A stretch of 64,000 nt of DNA, taken from assembly GCF_003018235.1 (NCBI RefSeq), contig NZ_CP027439.1; one strand, 5' to 3'. The DNA is from Escherichia coli (GTDB lineage Bacteria > Pseudomonadota > Gammaproteobacteria > Enterobacterales > Enterobacteriaceae). The position numbers and the translations under genes were made by a program. Of the stretch, positions 3,622 through 47,994 are shown one piece after another. The notes beneath the pieces are model-generated. The model worked only from the letters and a program-made list of their open reading frames with translations, ran no database searches and was not told where the DNA came from. The number at the start of each line of letters is the position of its first letter. Positions within the stretch are counted from its first letter, which is position 1.

Positions 3622-5580
3622 ATGTCAGTTACAGAGTCTAAGACAAAAACGGAGCGTAAATCCAGCCGTAAACCTGCAAAAACGCAGGAAACAGTCCTGT
3701 CTGCCCTGCTGGCGCAGACGGAGGAAGTGAGCGTGCCGCTGGCCTCACTGATTAAATCACCGCTGAATGTGCGCACGGTGCCGTATTCTGCGGAGTCCGT
3801 CAGCGAACTGGCGGACTCCATTAAAGGCGTCGGCCTGTTACAGAATCTGGTTGTTCATGCCCTGCCAGGTGACCGTTACGGTGTCGCCGCAGGTGGTCGC
3901 CGACTGGCTGCACTCAACATGCTGGCAGAGCGTGGCATCATTCCGGCTGACTGGCCTGTCCGTGTGAAGGTCATTCCGCAGGAGCTGGCGACGGCGGCAT
4001 CAATGACTGAAAACGGTCATCGTCGGGATATGCACCCTGCTGAACAGATTGCCGGATTCCGCGCAATGGCGCAGGAAGGCAAAACACCTGCACAAATCGG
4101 TGATTTGCTGGGCTATTCACCCCGCCATGTCCAGCGAATGCTGAAACTGGCAGATCTTGCGCCTGTCATCCTCGATGCGCTGGCAGAAGACCGCATCACC
4201 ACCGAACACTGTCAGGCGCTGGCACTGGAGAACGACACCGCGCGTCAGGTGCAGGTGTTTGAAGCCGCCTGCCAGTCAGGATGGGGTGGAAAACCGGAAG
4301 TGCAGACCATTCGTCGTCTGGTGACCGAAAGTGAAGTGGCGGTGGCGGGGAACAGTAAATTCCGCTTCGTGGGGGCTGATGCCTTCTCGCCAGATGAACT
4401 GCGCACCGATTTGTTCAGCGACGACGAGGGTGGCTATGTGGACTGTGTTGCGCTCGATGTCGCCCTGCTGGAAAAACTCCAGGCTGTCGCAGAGTTCCTT
4501 CGGGAAGCCGAAGGCTGGGAATGGTGCGCCGGACGTATGGAGCCTGTTGGTGAGTGCCGTGAGGATGCCGGAACATACCGCTGTCTGCCGGAGCCGGAAG
4601 CGGTGCTGACGGAGGCGGAAGAAGAACGCCTGAACGAACTGATGGCACGTTACGACGCGCCGGAAAACCAGAGTGAGGAATCCGACCTGCTGGAAGCCGA
4701 AATGAAGCTGATGCGCTGCATGGCGAAGGTCAGGGCGTGGACGCCGGAGATGCGTGCCGGAAGTGGCGTGGTGGTGTCCTGGCGTTATGGCAACGTGTGT
4801 GTCCAGCGTGGTGTGCAGTTGCGCAGTGAGGATGATGTGGCTGATAACGATTACCGCACGGAACAGGTGCAGGAGAAAGCCTCAGTGGAGGAAATCAGTC
4901 TGCCGCTGCTGACGAAAATGTCCTCAGAGCGCACGCTGGCAGTCCAGGCGGCACTGATGCAGCAATCAGACAAATCCCTGGCACTTCTGGCATGGACACT
5001 CTGTCTGAATGTATTTGGCAGTGGAGCGTACAGCAATCCCGCCAGAATCCGCCTGGAATGTGAGCATTATTCGCTGACCAGCGATGCGCCGTCAGGGAAG
5101 GAAGGTGCCGCATTCATGGCGATGATGGCAGAAAAAGCCCGTCTTGCCGCCCTGCTGCCGGATGGATGGGCACGGGATATGACGACGTTCCTGTCACTCA
5201 GTCAGGAGGTGCTGTTATCACTGCTCAGTTTCTGCACCGCGTGCAGTATCCACGGTGTCCAGACCCGTGAGTATGGTCACACGTCACGCAGTCCGCTGGA
5301 TTCGCTGGAAAGCGCCATCGGCTTTCACATGCGCGACTGGTGGCAGCCGACAAAAGCAAACTTCTTCGGACACCTGAAAAAGCCGCAGATTATCGCAGCC
5401 CTGAATGAGGCAGGACTGTCCGGTGCTGCACGGGACGCGGAGAAGATGAAGAAAGGCGATGCGGCTGAACATGCAGAGTTCCACATGAAAGACAACCGCT
5501 GGGTGCCTGGCTGGATGTGTGCACCACGCCCACAGACGGATGCCACTGAACGCACCGATAACCTGGCTGATGCCGCCTGA
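3622..5580 (+). CDS. ParB-like nuclease-domain protein (leading region)
   Basis: 652-aa ORF whose N-terminal region has a ParB/Srx-like fold signature (LLQNLVVHALPGDRYGVAAGGRRLAALNM); RBS AAGGAG upstream. Confidence 0.7.
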   Translation: MSVTESKTKTERKSSRKPAKTQETVLSALLAQTEEVSVPLASLIKSPLNVRTVPYSAESVSELADSIKGVGLLQNLVVHALPGDRYGVAAGGRRLAALNMLAERGIIPADWPVRVKVIPQELATAASMTENGHRRDMHPAEQIAGFRAMAQEGKTPAQIGDLLGYSPRHVQRMLKLADLAPVILDALAEDRITTEHCQALALENDTARQVQVFEAACQSGWGGKPEVQTIRRLVTESEVAVAGNSKFRFVGADAFSPDELRTDLFSDDEGGYVDCVALDVALLEKLQAVAEFLREAEGWEWCAGRMEPVGECREDAGTYRCLPEPEAVLTEAEEERLNELMARYDAPENQSEESDLLEAEMKLMRCMAKVRAWTPEMRAGSGVVVSWRYGNVCVQRGVQLRSEDDVADNDYRTEQVQEKASVEEISLPLLTKMSSERTLAVQAALMQQSDKSLALLAWTLCLNVFGSGAYSNPARIRLECEHYSLTSDAPSGKEGAAFMAMMAEKARLAALLPDGWARDMTTFLSLSQEVLLSLLSFCTACSIHGVQTREYGHTSRSPLDSLESAIGFHMRDWWQPTKANFFGHLKKPQIIAALNEAGLSGAARDAEKMKKGDAAEHAEFHMKDNRWVPGWMCAPRPQTDATERTDNLADAA

Positions 5581-26383: not shown

Positions 26384-27119
26384 AGCATTACTGCCACTGT
26401 TACTCTGCTGCTTTATTTTTCCGGCGTCAGGAAAAGATGCAGGCTGGCAGTGGTATAACGAGAAAATAAATCCGAAGGAAAAAGAAAATAAACCAGTACC
26501 TGCAGCCCCCCGTCAGGAGCCGGACATTATGCAGAAACTGGCCGCACTGCAGACGGCAACAAAGCGGGCGCTGTACGAAGCCATTCTGTATCCCGGTGTG
26601 GATAATTTTGTGAAATATTTCCGTCTGCAGAATTACTGGACTCAGCAGGCCGGGCTTTTCACCATGAGCGCCAGAAAGGCCATGCTGGCACATCCTGAAC
26701 TGGACTATAACCTGCAGTACAGCCATTACAACGGTACGGTACGGAACCAGCTGGCAGCAGACCAGGCGCAGCAGCGACAGGCCATTGCGAAACTGGCTGA
26801 ACACTACGGCATCATGTTTTTTTACCGGGGGCTGGACCCTATTGACGGGCAGCTGGCGCAGGTCATTAATGGCTTCAGGGATACCTATGGTCTGAGTGTT
26901 ATTCCCGTATCCGTGGATGGCGTGATTAATCCGCTGTTGCCGGATTCCCGGACTGACCAGGGGCAGGCGCAGCGCCTCGGCGTGAAATATTTCCCGGCCA
27001 TGATGCTGGTTGACCCGAAACAGGGCAGTGTTCGCCCGTTATCATACGGCTTTATTTCGCAGGATGATCTGGCAAAACAGTTCCTGAACGTTTCTGAAGA
27101 TTTTAAACCAAATTTTTAA
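26376..27119 (+). CDS. traF: TraF (thioredoxin-fold pilus assembly protein)
   Basis: 247 aa, MNKALLPLLLCCFIFPASG. Confidence 0.9.
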   Translation: MNKALLPLLLCCFIFPASGKDAGWQWYNEKINPKEKENKPVPAAPRQEPDIMQKLAALQTATKRALYEAILYPGVDNFVKYFRLQNYWTQQAGLFTMSARKAMLAHPELDYNLQYSHYNGTVRNQLAADQAQQRQAIAKLAEHYGIMFFYRGLDPIDGQLAQVINGFRDTYGLSVIPVSVDGVINPLLPDSRTDQGQAQRLGVKYFPAMMLVDPKQGSVRPLSYGFISQDDLAKQFLNVSEDFKPNF

Positions 27120-45399: not shown

Positions 45400-45660
45400 A
45401 TGTCGCAGACAGAAAATGCAGTGACTTCCTCATTGAGTCAAAAGCGGTTTGTGCGCAGAGGTAAGCCTATGACTGACTCTGAGAAACAAATGGCCGCTGT
45501 TGCAAGAAAACGTCTTACACACAAAGAGATAAAAGTTTTTGTCAAAAATCCTCTGAAAGATCTCATGGTTGAGTACTGCGAGAGAGAGGGGATAACACAG
45601 GCTCAGTTCGTTGAGAAAATCATCAAAGATGAACTGCAGAGACTGGATATACTAAAGTAA
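45400..45660 (+). CDS. copB: Replication copy-number repressor CopB (RepA2)
   Basis: 86-aa protein [47 protein letters not shown], IncFII RepA2 family. Confidence 0.88.
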
Positions 45661-45764
45661 AGACTTTACTTTGTGGCGTAGCATGCTAGATTACTGATCG
45701 TTTAAGGAATTTTATGGCTGGCCACGCCATAAGGTGGCAGGGAACTGGTTCTGATGTGGATTTA

Positions 45765-45855
45765 CAGGAGCCAGAAAAGTGAAAACCCCGATAATCTTCT
45801 TTAACTTTGGCGAGTGAGAAAGATTATCGGGGCTAACAAGAAACTGCATAGAAGC
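45765..45855 (-). ncRNA. copA: CopA (inc) antisense RNA of the repA1 leader (approximate ends)
   Basis: Long imperfect hairpin 45786..45832 (ccccgataatctt...aagattatcgggg) with a loop containing GCGCCAAAG on the minus strand, matching the CopA/CopT stem-loop II arrangement between copB and tap. Confidence 0.5.
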
Positions 45856-45883
45856 TGTTGCTCTATGCGGGGAGTATAGTTAT

Positions 45884-45958
45884 ATGCCCGGAAAAGTTCA
45901 AGACTTCTTTCTGTGCTCACTCCTTCTGTGCAACATAAGTGCAGGATGGTGTGACTGA
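45884..45958 (+). CDS. tap: Leader peptide Tap (RepA6) translationally coupled to repA1
   Basis: 24-aa [27 protein letters not shown] ending at TGA 45956..45958, overlapping the repA1 GTG start at 45951. Confidence 0.7.
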
Positions 45959-46808
45959 TCTTCAACAAACGTATTACCGCCAGGTAAAGAACCCGAATCC
46001 GGTGTTCACTCCCCGTGAAGGTGCCGGAACGCTGAAGTTCTGCGAAAAACTGATGGAAAAGGCGGTGGGCTTCACCTCCCGTTTTGATTTCGCCATTCAT
46101 GTGGCGCATGCCCGTTCCCGTGGTCTGCGTCGGCGCATGCCACCGGTGCTGCGTCGACGGGCTATTGATGCGCTGCTGCAGGGGCTGTGTTTCCACTATG
46201 ACCCGCTGGCCAACCGCGTCCAGTGTTCCATCACCACACTGGCCATTGAGTGCGGACTGGCGACAGAGTCCGGTGCAGGAAAACTCTCCATCACCCGTGC
46301 CACCCGGGCCCTGACGTTCCTGTCAGAGCTGGGACTGATTACCTACCAGACGGAATATGACCCGCTTATCGGGTGCTACATTCCGACCGACATCACGTTC
46401 ACACCGGCTCTGTTTGCTGCCCTTGATGTGTCTGAGGATGCAGTGGCAGCTGCGCGCCGCAGTCGTGTTGAATGGGAAAACAAACAGCGCAAAAAGCAGG
46501 GGCTGGATACCCTGGGTATGGATGAGCTGATAGCGAAAGCCTGGCGTTTTGTGCGTGAGCGTTTCCGCAGTTACCAGACAGAGCTTAAGTCCCGTGGAAT
46601 AAAACGTGCCCGTGCGCGTCGTGATGCGAACAGGGAACGTCAGGATATCGTCACCCTGGTGAAACGGCAGCTGACGCGTGAAATCTCGGAAGGGCGCTTT
46701 ACTGCTAATGGTGAGACGGTAAAACGCGAAGTGGAGCGTCGTGTGAAGGAGCGCATGATTCTGTCACGTAACCGCAATTACAGCCGGCTGGCCACAGCTT
46801 CCCCCTGA
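45951..46808 (+). CDS. repA1: Replication initiator RepA1 (IncFII/RepFIIA)
   Basis: 285 aa from the GTG start: [89 protein letters not shown]. Confidence 0.93.
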
Positions 46809-46849
46809 ACCTGACCTCCTCTGAATAATCCGGCCTGCGCCGGAGGCTT

Positions 46850-47100
46850 CCGCACGTCTGAAGCCCGACAGCGCACAAAAAATCAGCACCACATACAAAA
46901 AACAACCTCATCATCCAGCTTCTGGTGCATCCGGCCCCCCCCCTGTTTTCGATACAAAACACGCCTCACAGACGGGGAATTTTGCTTATCCACATTAAAC
47001 TGCAAGGGACTTCCCCATAAGGTTACAACCGTTCATGTCATAAAGCGCCAGCCGCCAGTCTTACAGGGTGCAATGTATCTTTTAAACACCTGTTTATATC
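46850..47100. other. oriR region (vegetative origin) with DnaA box
   Basis: DnaA box TTATCCACA at 46986..46994 about 180 bp downstream of repA1; AT-rich stretch follows. Confidence 0.55.
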
Positions 47101-47216
47101 TCCTTTAAACTACTTAATTACATTCATTTAAAAAGAAAACCTGTTCACTGCCTGTCCTGTGGACAGACAGATATGCACCTCCCACCGCAAGCGGCGGGCC
47201 CCGACCGGAGCCATTT

Positions 47217-47235
47217 TAGTTACAACACTCAAATA
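47217..47235 (-). other. Ter (Tus-binding) site, minus orientation
   Basis: Reverse complement reads GAGTGTTGTAACTAAAATG, matching the Ter core GTTGTAACTA. Confidence 0.6.
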
Positions 47236-47346
47236 CAACCACCGGAAAAACCCCGGTCCCGCGCAGAACTGAAACCACAATGCCCCTCCTCATAACTGAA
47301 AAGCGCCGCCGCCCCCGCCCAAAGGGCGGGAACAACATCGCTTTTA

Positions 47347-47369
47347 ATTATGAATGTTGTAACTATACA
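47347..47369 (+). other. Ter (Tus-binding) site, plus orientation
   Basis: AATTATGAATGTTGTAACTATAC matches the Ter consensus; inverted relative to the site at 47217. Confidence 0.65.
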
Positions 47370-47407
47370 ACATCATTGCTGTCAGTATTCTGGCTGGAAG
47401 TCCTCAG

Positions 47408-47663
47408 TACACGCTCGTAAGCGGCCCTGACGGCCCGCTAACGCGGAGATACGCCCCAACTTCGGGTAAACCCTCGTCGGGACCACTCCGACAGCGCACA
47501 GAAGCTCTTTCATGGCTGAAAGCGGGTATAGTCTGGCAGGGCTGGGGATGGGTAAGGTGAAATCTATCAATCAGTACCGGCTTACGCCGGGCTTCGGCGG
47601 TTTTACTCCGGTATCACATGTAACCACAGCGTGCCGCCTTCCATGCCGCTGGCGCGGCATATC
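47408..47663 (+). repeat. Paralogous structured non-coding element, copy A (candidate sRNA or cis-regulatory RNA)
   Basis: About 80% identical to 48657..48907 (my estimate); conserved hairpins (gcggccctgacggcccgc; ccggc-ttac-gccgg; ggcttcggcgg followed by TTTT); no conserved reading frame. Confidence 0.6.
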
Positions 47664-47724
47664 CTGGTGACGATATCTGAATCGTTATATACTGCGTATA
47701 TATGTGGTAATGACGGGGTGATAA

Positions 47725-47994
47725 ATGGCACAGGTTAATATGAGTTTAAGAATTGACGCTGAACTGAAGGATGCTTTTATGGCCGCTGCAAAAAGCATGG
47801 ACCGTAATGGCTCTCAGTTAATCCGGGATTTTATGCGCCAGACCGTGGAACGGCAGCATAATACCTGGTTCCGTGACCAGGTTGCGGAAGGACGTCAGCA
47901 ACTCGAGCGCGGCGATGTGCTTCCCCATGACATGGTCGAATCTTCTGCTGCTGCATGGCGGGATGAAATGAGCAGGAAGGTTGCCGGTAAATGA
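47725..47994 (+). CDS. Ribbon-helix-helix antitoxin-like protein (RelB/DinJ/ParD-type)
   Basis: MAQVNMSLRIDAELKDAFMAAAKSMDRNGSQLIRDFMRQ matches the RHH pattern; putative -35/-10 and RBS at the 3' end of element A; stop overlaps the next ATG (ATGA). Confidence 0.7.
   Translation: MAQVNMSLRIDAELKDAFMAAAKSMDRNGSQLIRDFMRQTVERQHNTWFRDQVAEGRQQLERGDVLPHDMVESSAAAWRDEMSRKVAGK

What the first reader, a model, noticed from the sequence alone, without database searches (positions are those of the whole stretch)
46986..47369. DnaA box and two inverted Ter-like sites flanking the origin region
TTATCCACA at 46986 and two GTTGTAACTA-core sequences in opposite orientation (47217..47235 minus, 47347..47369 plus) are read directly. 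They are consistent with Tus-dependent replication fork traps that make replication from oriR unidirectional.
Basis: partly seen in the sequence, partly recalled or inferred. Interest (0 to 1): 0.4.

Follow-up and report, generated by a model that had tools for sequence, protein, structure and literature searches.

The report
IncFII plasmid origin with Ter fork trap
This is the ordinary, already described replication origin of an R1/R100-type (IncFII) plasmid, with its DnaA box and its two opposed Tus-binding Ter sites that keep replication one-way and stop it after one round.

Summary
TTATCCACA lies at 46986-46994 (+). Two perfect Ter cores lie at 47213-47235 (-) and 47347-47369 (+). They are the only two exact matches to GNRNGTTGTAACTA in 64 kb (0.02 expected).

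The region is the basic IncFII replicon: copB, CopA RNA, repA1, oriR and the "repA4" region. It is colinear with and about 95% identical to R100 and R1, and the DnaA box and both Ter cores are unchanged. In R1 these sites (terRL, terRR) are published Tus-dependent fork barriers.

The orientation rule was checked against E. coli TerB. The left site stops leftward forks and the right site stops rightward forks, so forks can enter the 111-bp gap but not leave.

Both lie downstream of minimal oriR, before a G-site-like block. Only the left site enforces one-way replication; the right site ends the round.

In 37 IncFII-family loci from other Enterobacterales (RepA 57-98% identical), 28 keep the same pair and 5 keep one site.

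Two extras: a covarying hairpin abuts the right Ter, and the right site is better conserved than the left.

Verdict: real, functional by homology, already known. Low interest.

The parts
45400..45660 (+). copB / repA2, the replication regulatory protein of the IncFII replicon
   Evidence: NCBIfam NF010256 'replication regulatory protein RepA', E 4e-41.
45777..45866 (-). CopA antisense RNA gene
   Evidence: Rfam RF00042 CopA, 89.9 bits against a gathering score of 60, full length.
45951..46808 (+). repA1, the IncFII replication initiator (285 aa plus stop)
   Evidence: TIGR03474 incFII_RepA, E 8e-176. 98% identical to the common E. coli RepA cluster, Pfam PF02387.
46986..46994 (+). DnaA box TTATCCACA at the repA-proximal edge of oriR
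   Evidence: Exact 9/9 match. Invariant in R100 and R1. Mean identity 0.87 across 26 divergent loci. A + strand box sits at +177..+193 from the repA stop in 28 related loci. PMC2762410 and PMC4980987 describe the IncFII/R1 DnaA box.
46995..47170 (.). Rest of minimal oriR (approximate limits): a conserved block containing GGTTACAACC (47021-47030), then an AT-rich stretch at about 47075-47140
   Evidence: Near-identical to R1/R100. Mean identity 0.68 in divergent relatives, with long runs above 90%. The limits and the RepA-binding role are inferred from what is known of R1 and were not tested.
47213..47235 (-). Left Ter site, equivalent to R1 terRL. It reads TATTTGAGTGTTGTAACTAAAAT on the minus strand. 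Its non-permissive face points to higher coordinates, so it stops leftward forks.
   Evidence: 12/12 on the scored core. Exact GNRNGTTGTAACTA match. Orthologous to the R100 site at L001 40076-40089 and to the R1 site. Core identity is 0.84 against 0.40-0.46 for the outer positions.
47299..47345 (.). Conserved hairpin between the Ter sites. Outer stem AAAAGCG/CGCTTTT, inner stem CCCGCCC/GGGCGGG, loop AAA. It ends 1 nt before position 1 of the right Ter and has the shape of a bidirectional intrinsic terminator.
   Evidence: As DNA it folds at -13.8 kcal/mol (+ strand, z -3.2) and -17.9 kcal/mol (- strand, z -5.0). It is present in 32 related loci. 97.6% of cells are paired, 6 pairs change on both sides, and 0 of 500 shuffles reach the covariation score.
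47347..47369 (+). Right Ter site, equivalent to R1 terRR. It reads ATTATGAATGTTGTAACTATACA. Its non-permissive face points to lower coordinates, so it stops rightward forks.
   Evidence: 12/12 core and exact pattern match. Orthologous to R100 L001 40212-40225 and to R1. Core identity is 0.87 against 0.21 for positions 20-23. It has the same strand sense as E. coli TerB, which lies on the + strand of MG1655; that TerB blocks clockwise forks is background knowledge.
47409..47500 (-). G-site-like conserved block, the putative primase-dependent single-strand initiation signal and leading-strand start region
   Evidence: Mean identity 0.83 in divergent relatives. The minus strand folds better than shuffles (z -2.97) and better than the plus strand (z -1.52). 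PMC10331603 places the leading-strand start beyond the two ter sites. The identity as a G-site is inferred and was not tested.

Best explanation
Window 45400-47660 is the basic replicon of an IncFII (R1/R100-type) plasmid. RepA1, made in cis, acts at oriR just downstream of its gene, together with host DnaA bound to the box at 46986. Between oriR and the region where leading-strand synthesis starts lie two 23-bp binding sites for the host terminator protein Tus, in opposite orientation. Tus is not encoded in the window. Each Tus-Ter complex blocks DnaB only when the helicase approaches from the position-1/G6 side. The left site (47213-47235, minus strand) therefore arrests any fork moving toward repA, so replication is one-way, away from repA. 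The right site (47347-47369, plus strand) arrests the productive fork when it returns after copying the whole plasmid. Replication thus ends inside the 111-bp gap between the two 23-bp sites rather than running into replicated DNA. Shown here: the sequences, their orientation, their orthology to R1/R100 and their conservation across the family. Taken from the literature on R1: Tus dependence, fork arrest, and the instability phenotype when the system is lost. Inferred: that the same holds for this particular plasmid.
For: The two sites are the only exact Ter-consensus matches in 64 kb, with 0.02 expected. The replicon is complete, with copB, CopA, RepA and oriR. It is colinear with R100 at 95% identity and with R1, and the DnaA box and both Ter cores are invariant while their flanks vary. 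PMC10331603 states that R1 has terRL and terRR between minimal oriR and the leading-strand start. [quoted passage not shown] Loss of Tus/ter gives rolling-circle forms, multimers and instability. PMC4398462 places the ter sites in the repA4 region, which transposon mutagenesis shows is needed for stable maintenance. For orientation, DnaB is blocked when it moves 5'->3' along the G6 strand (PMC4499146). E. coli TerB lies on the + strand of MG1655 and is known to block clockwise forks, which fits that rule. Both window sites carry T5, G6, T9 and the full core that the literature calls critical. In the family survey, 28 of 37 IncFII-family loci from other Enterobacterales keep a minus-then-plus pair 400-700 bp after repA, and 5 more keep one site. 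That is 61 sites against about 0.16 expected from my calculation. The Ter cores are islands of 0.84-0.87 identity within flanks of 0.2-0.5.
Against: There is no direct evidence of Tus binding or fork arrest for this sequence. The left site has G rather than A at position 8, which the chromosomal consensus counts as core. However, R1 (GTGTG) and many relatives share G8. A helicase loaded at oriR would meet the right Ter at its non-permissive face before reaching the G-site-like block, and neither the reviews I could read nor my analysis resolves this (note). The host of this plasmid is unknown, and there is no tus in the window. The primary papers (Hill 1988, Krabbe 1997, Jiang 1993) were not available, so their content is cited second-hand.
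Confidence: 0.9

Rival explanations
1. The Ter pair is inherited and intact in sequence, but it matters little for this plasmid. Reasons could be low Tus occupancy at natural Tus levels, or a host or second replicon that makes the trap dispensable. On this view the conservation partly reflects overlap with other signals such as the hairpin or the repA4 region.
For: At natural Tus concentrations several chromosomal Ter sites are not occupied (PMC8707476). Nine of 37 related loci lack one or both sites, and 14 sites carry a core mismatch. The right Ter's positions 1-5 sit directly beside the conserved hairpin's T-run, so conservation there may partly reflect the hairpin.
Against: The Tus-contact core is much better conserved than the positions beside it (0.84-0.87 against 0.2-0.5). 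The non-searched position T5 is also conserved (24/30 and 32/33). In R1, loss of Tus/ter causes instability.
Confidence: 0.07
2. The GTTGTAAC motifs are binding sites for RepA or another plasmid or host protein rather than for Tus. The Ter resemblance would then be incidental.
For: A third, equally conserved GTTGTAAC (47022-47029) lies inside oriR and is clearly not a Ter site. So this 8-mer does have a non-Tus use in the replicon.
Against: The two outer sites match Ter over 14 of 14 specified positions plus T5, which goes well beyond the shared 8-mer. The oriR copy fails at positions 6, 8, 9, 18 and 19. The R1 orthologues are reported as Tus-dependent barriers.
Confidence: 0.02
3. The matches are chance occurrences in AT-containing intergenic DNA.
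For: GTTGTAAC alone is not rare: 3 found against 1.45 expected, and 16 of 100 shuffles reach 3. One further 11/12 match at 58456 looks like chance.
Against: The exact 14-mer is found twice against 0.02 expected, with 0 of 100 shuffles. The inverted pair is 121 bp apart. It is conserved in position and orientation across 28 species-level loci.
Confidence: 0.01

Closest known systems
terRL / terRR of plasmid R1 (and the identical arrangement in R100/NR1, the 'repA4 region')
   Same: Same replicon type, order and spacing, about 95% DNA identity. The right site is identical over positions 1-19 to both R100 and R1. The left site is identical over positions 6-21 to R100 (GAGTGTTGTAACTAAA), and R1 has T at position 7. 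The DnaA box is identical.
   Different: Only the outer, non-contact positions differ. The left site ends ...AAAAT where R100 has ...AAAGC. The right site ends ...TATACA where R100 has ...TACTTC, with a 2-bp insertion just after it. The inner hairpin stem reads CCCGCCC/GGGCGGG instead of CCGGCCC/GGGCCGG, a compensated change. Downstream genes also differ: yacA plus a second G-site-like copy replace tir-pemIK.
Chromosomal Ter sites of E. coli (TerA-J) bound by Tus
   Same: The same 23-bp asymmetric consensus, with T5, G6 and the GTTGTAACTA core, and the same polarity logic. The paired opposed orientation lets forks enter but not leave.
   Different: The two opposed groups are far apart on the chromosome and lie opposite the origin, with several back-up sites. 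Here there are two sites 111 bp apart, next to the origin. The left plasmid site has G at position 8 where chromosomal sites have A.
The terminus of plasmid R6K (pair of opposed Ter sites)
   Same: A plasmid-borne pair of inverted Tus-dependent barriers that stop both forks (the R6K sequences are from memory, not checked here).
   Different: R6K is an iteron/pi-protein replicon. Its terminus is placed asymmetrically away from its origins and does not serve to make replication one-way. There is no sequence homology outside the Ter cores. Not tested here.

Membership tests
Tus-dependent Ter site (E. coli type) | 23-bp asymmetric sequence with G at position 6 and the conserved core at positions 8/9-19 (A/G-T-GTTGTAACTA) | tested here: met
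   Both sites score 12/12 on G6, T9 and positions 10-19. Position 8 is A in the right site and G in the left. The core definition comes from PMC8347550 and PMC8707476.
Tus-dependent Ter site (E. coli type) | T at position 5, needed for lock formation (a G here is blamed for the failure of TerF and TerH) | tested here: met
   The left site reads TATTT-G and the right reads ATTAT-G. The requirement is from PMC8707476. T5 is present in 24/30 left and 32/33 right sites across the family.
Tus-dependent Ter site (E. coli type) | High-affinity binding by Tus and polar arrest of DnaB-driven forks | not testable with these tools
   Needs EMSA or ChIP and 2D gels. Reported for the R1 orthologues only.
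Tus-dependent Ter site (E. coli type) | A tus gene available in the cell | tested here: inconclusive
   There is no tus in the window (tblastn best E 0.88). The close relatives' hosts are Escherichia, Klebsiella, Shigella and Salmonella. Fork traps or ter sites are described for E. coli, Shigella, Salmonella and Klebsiella in PMC8347550. The actual host of this window is unknown.
IncFII (R1/R100) oriR-ter module | Lies immediately downstream of an IncFII repA1 with copB and CopA control | tested here: met
IncFII (R1/R100) oriR-ter module | Colinear sequence homology with the characterised R1 and R100 origin regions | tested here: met
   95-96% mean column identity over 640-950 bp, with the same order of DnaA box, AT-rich region, Ter(-), hairpin, Ter(+) and G-site block.
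IncFII (R1/R100) oriR-ter module | Two ter sites between minimal oriR and the leading-strand start, oriented so the origin-proximal one blocks the fork moving back toward oriR/repA | tested here: met
   The order on the + strand is oriR at 46986-~47170, Ter(-) at 47213, Ter(+) at 47347 and the conserved block at 47409-47500. The orientation rule comes, and the layout. The actual start site of synthesis was not tested.
DnaA box (R-type, TTATCCACA) | 9-mer consensus match at a conserved position in the origin | tested here: met
   9/9 match at 46986. The position is conserved in 28 relatives. DnaA binding itself is not testable here. In R1 DnaA stimulates replication but is not strictly required (PMC4980987).

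The most novel reading that the evidence does not exclude
[quoted passage not shown] It is kept with compensatory changes in 32 IncFII-family loci. It may be a functional partner of the fork trap rather than a bystander. One possibility is a bidirectional transcription terminator that keeps RNA polymerase from dislodging Tus. Another is a DNA structure that helps the initiating helicase cross a Ter site it meets in the blocking orientation. Together with the stronger conservation of the right site than the left, this would mean the family's trap has an undescribed third component. I could not check whether the older R1/NR1 literature already describes this hairpin.
Probability: 0.25. Interest if true: 0.4.

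Novelty: already known. Interest (0 to 1): 0.12.

Why it matters
For annotation, it fixes the replication origin, the direction of replication (toward higher coordinates) and the terminus of this plasmid. It also shows that the plasmid depends on the host's Tus for orderly termination. For biology it adds little. The R1/R100 Ter pair has been known since 1988, and its role in one-way replication and in preventing rolling-circle over-replication and multimers since 1997. The family survey gives modest new context. The pair is kept across IncFII-like replicons of many Enterobacterales, and the round-terminating site is kept better than the direction-enforcing site. This bears on the published idea that chromosomal fork traps derive from plasmid ones.

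Tried and rejected
1. I tried to read the primary papers: Jiang 1993 (PMC206589), Bernander 1992 (PMC557023) and Neylon 2005 (PMC1197808). None is held, so R1/NR1 experiments are cited through reviews.
2. A literature search for 'TerR1/TerR2' returned only unrelated papers.
3. BLAST searches of plasmids saturated at 5000 records, all at least 91% identical, so they said nothing about deep conservation.
4. The search for homologous proteins listed only RepA relatives of at least 68% identity. I replaced it with the search for related loci on genome contigs.
5. I looked for a conserved hairpin beside the left Ter's non-permissive face. The window has a weak one, but it is not conserved in relatives, so I rejected it.
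6. I tested GC skew as a sign of one-way replication. It is positive over the tra genes and about zero after the origin. It is confounded by gene orientation and mosaic cargo, so it was not used.
7. I considered the third GTTGTAAC (47022) and the 11/12 site at 58456 as extra Ter sites. Both fail core positions.
8. I looked for a second replicon in 50-64 kb that might feed forks into the trap. None was found; the region holds LysR, UbiD/UbiX, an IS and a YadA-like adhesin.
9. Rfam finds nothing in the oriR-Ter region and only CopA upstream.

Full report
**Observation.** TTATCCACA is at 46986-46994 on the + strand. GTTGTAAC occurs at 47022-47029 (-), 47219-47226 (-) and 47356-47363 (+). The last two extend to complete Ter-type sites. 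On the minus strand, 47213-47235 reads TATTTGAGTGTTGTAACTAAAAT. On the plus strand, 47347-47369 reads ATTATGAATGTTGTAACTATACA. The pattern GNRNGTTGTAACTA has exactly these two matches in the 64-kb window. Shuffles give a mean of 0.02, and none of 100 reach two. With mismatches allowed the pattern is uninformative: 5 found against 6.1 expected. A lone DnaA box is weak evidence, with 3 exact copies in the window against 0.62 expected. The third GTTGTAAC, at 47022, fails Ter positions 6, 8, 9, 18 and 19 and is not a Ter site.

**Context.** The region is a complete IncFII basic replicon.
- copB lies at 45400-45660 (NF010256).
- The CopA antisense RNA gene lies at 45777-45866 on the minus strand (Rfam RF00042, 89.9 bits).
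- repA1 lies at 45951-46808 (TIGR03474, E 8e-176). It is 98% identical to the common RepA cluster.
- Upstream are finO, a nuclease gene and the tra operon on the same strand.
- Downstream are the yacA antitoxin gene and mosaic cargo.
- More than 5000 plasmids of Escherichia, Klebsiella, Shigella and Salmonella hold this 940-bp origin region at 90-97% identity. It occurs in 4145 of 5426 complete E. coli genomes, and no record covers the whole region at more than 96.7% identity.

**Orthology with the characterised plasmids.** The region downstream of repA aligns colinearly with R100 (NC_002134, 95% identity) and with R1 (NZ_KY749247). The DnaA box, the AT-rich part of oriR and both Ter cores are invariant. 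The differences cluster just outside the Ter cores and in the spacer between them. R100 has the same two exact Ter matches and no others in 44 kb.

[quoted passage not shown] Without Tus or ter, R1 accumulates branched forms, rolling circles and multimers and becomes unstable (PMC4999828; PMC7174701). For R100-type replicons the ter sites are placed in the repA4 region, which transposon mutagenesis shows is needed for stable maintenance (PMC4398462). The DnaA box is a standard feature of IncFII origins (PMC2762410). In R1, DnaA stimulates replication but is not strictly required (PMC4980987).

**Orientation and mechanism.** DnaB is blocked when it translocates 5'->3' along the strand carrying G6 toward the non-permissive face. 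This frees C6 to lock into Tus (PMC4499146; PMC8707476). As a check, E. coli TerB lies on the + strand of MG1655, 11 bp before tus. It is known to stop clockwise forks, which move toward higher coordinates there.

It follows that the + strand site at 47347 stops forks moving to higher coordinates, and the minus-strand site at 47213 stops forks moving to lower coordinates. A fork from either side passes the first site it meets and is stopped by the second. All replication therefore ends within the 111 bp between the sites. This fits the published R1 scheme with repA on the left. The left site blocks movement back toward oriR and repA. The right site stops the productive fork when it returns through repA and oriR.

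Both sites lie to the right of oriR (46986 to about 47170). Both lie to the left of a strongly conserved block at 47409-47500. The minus strand of that block folds better than shuffles (z -2.97). I take it to be the G-site, the leading-strand start region, by position only. So 'flanking the origin' is wrong, and 'make replication unidirectional' describes only the left site. The window has no tus gene, so the system depends on the host.

**Conservation beyond close relatives.** A scan of one genome per species with a RepA alignment returned 41 loci with RepA 57-98% identical. They come from Klebsiella, Citrobacter, Enterobacter, Pantoea, Erwinia, Yersinia, Hafnia, Serratia, Salmonella and others. 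Of these, 37 have at least 1 kb downstream of repA.
- 28 carry a minus-strand then plus-strand Ter pair (at least 11 of 12 scored core positions). The sites start 406-564 and 541-696 bp after the aligned end of repA.
- 5 more carry one site.
- That makes 61 sites, where uniform-composition arithmetic (my calculation) predicts about 0.16.
- In the whole 5.8-kb loci only one other 11/12 match appears.
- The gap between the cores has a median of 116 bp and a range of 65-192 bp; it is 121 bp in the window.

In an alignment with 26 loci whose RepA is 74-79% identical, identity to the window varies by segment:

| Segment | Mean identity |
|---|---|
| DnaA box | 0.87 |
| Left Ter core | 0.84 |
| Right Ter core | 0.87 |
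| Outer Ter positions | 0.21-0.67 |
| Variable spacer between the sites | 0.41 |
| repA-oriR spacer | 0.29 |

Position 5 was not part of the search, yet it is T in 24/30 left and 32/33 right sites. This matches the reported need for T5. The pattern points to selection on the Tus-contact bases themselves.

**Other findings in the family.** The right site is perfect in 28 of 32 loci and the left in 19 of 29. Core mismatches cluster at position 11.

A hairpin at 47299-47345 has outer stem AAAAGCG/CGCTTTT and inner stem CCCGCCC/GGGCGGG. It ends one base before position 1 of the right Ter. It is present in 32 relatives. In those, 97.6% of cells are paired, GC<->CG swaps occur at two inner pairs in 10 and 13 sequences, and no shuffle reaches the observed covariation. 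As DNA it is far more stable than shuffles (z -3.2 and -5.0). Its A-run, stem and T-run give it the shape of a bidirectional intrinsic terminator. No comparable conserved structure lies beside the left site. What the hairpin does, and whether it is already described, I could not establish.

**Open point.** A helicase loaded at oriR and moving right would meet the right Ter at its blocking face before it could expose the G-site-like block. The reviews give the layout but not the solution (note). This applies equally to R1 and R100. It does not bear on whether the sites are Ter sites.

**Verdict.** The feature is the known terRL/terRR fork trap and DnaA box of the IncFII origin. Function in this plasmid is inferred from 95% orthology and family-wide conservation and was not measured. 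It is already known and of low interest. The hairpin and the left/right asymmetry are minor leads.

Noticed in passing
window 47299-47345: A covarying G+C-rich hairpin with a flanking A-run and T-run, shaped like a bidirectional terminator. It ends 1 nt before the right Ter and is conserved with compensatory changes in 32 IncFII-family loci.
   Followed up: yes
window 47408-47660 and 48657-48904: A direct repeat of about 250 bp (73-90% identical) duplicates the G-site-like block. The yacA antitoxin gene (47725-47994) lies between the copies. yacB and about 1 kb appear to be missing relative to NZ_CP051728.
   Followed up: partly
window 47021-47030: GGTTACAACC inside oriR contains the Ter 8-mer core and is 90-100% conserved across the family. 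It fails Ter positions 6, 8, 9, 18 and 19, so it is probably initiator-contact DNA rather than a Tus site.
   Followed up: partly
window 58456-58478 (+): TAAACGCATGTTGTAATTATCAC matches 11/12 of the Ter core (C17->T, C at position 5). It lies inside an OmpA-like ORF (58276-59076, minus strand). About 0.3 such matches are expected per window, so it is likely chance.
   Followed up: partly
loci L010-L041 (related replicons): Core mismatches in family Ter sites cluster at position 11 (T->C in 6 left sites; T->A in 2 left and 3 right sites, plus L037/L038). The right site is perfect more often (28/32) than the left (19/29).
   Followed up: partly
L003, L006, L008: Contigs with 77-98% identical IncFII RepA are labelled Lachnospiraceae MAG, Streptomyces morookaense and Candidatus Nanosynbacter MAG. 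This is most likely contamination or mis-binning of enterobacterial plasmid DNA.
   Followed up: no
window 46826-46850: A short hairpin (TCCGGC ctgc GCCGGA) just after the repA stop is about 90% conserved in divergent relatives. The rest of the repA-oriR spacer is only 29% conserved.
   Followed up: no
window 26597-26605 (-) and 60367-60375 (-): Two further exact TTATCCACA DnaA-box matches lie elsewhere in the window. Three in total against 0.62 expected. They were not examined.
   Followed up: no
window 46780-47720: No plasmid in PLSDB or in complete E. coli genomes covers the whole of this origin region at more than 96.7% identity, although thousands match at 90-96%. The window carries a slightly unusual allele of a very common replicon.
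   Followed up: no
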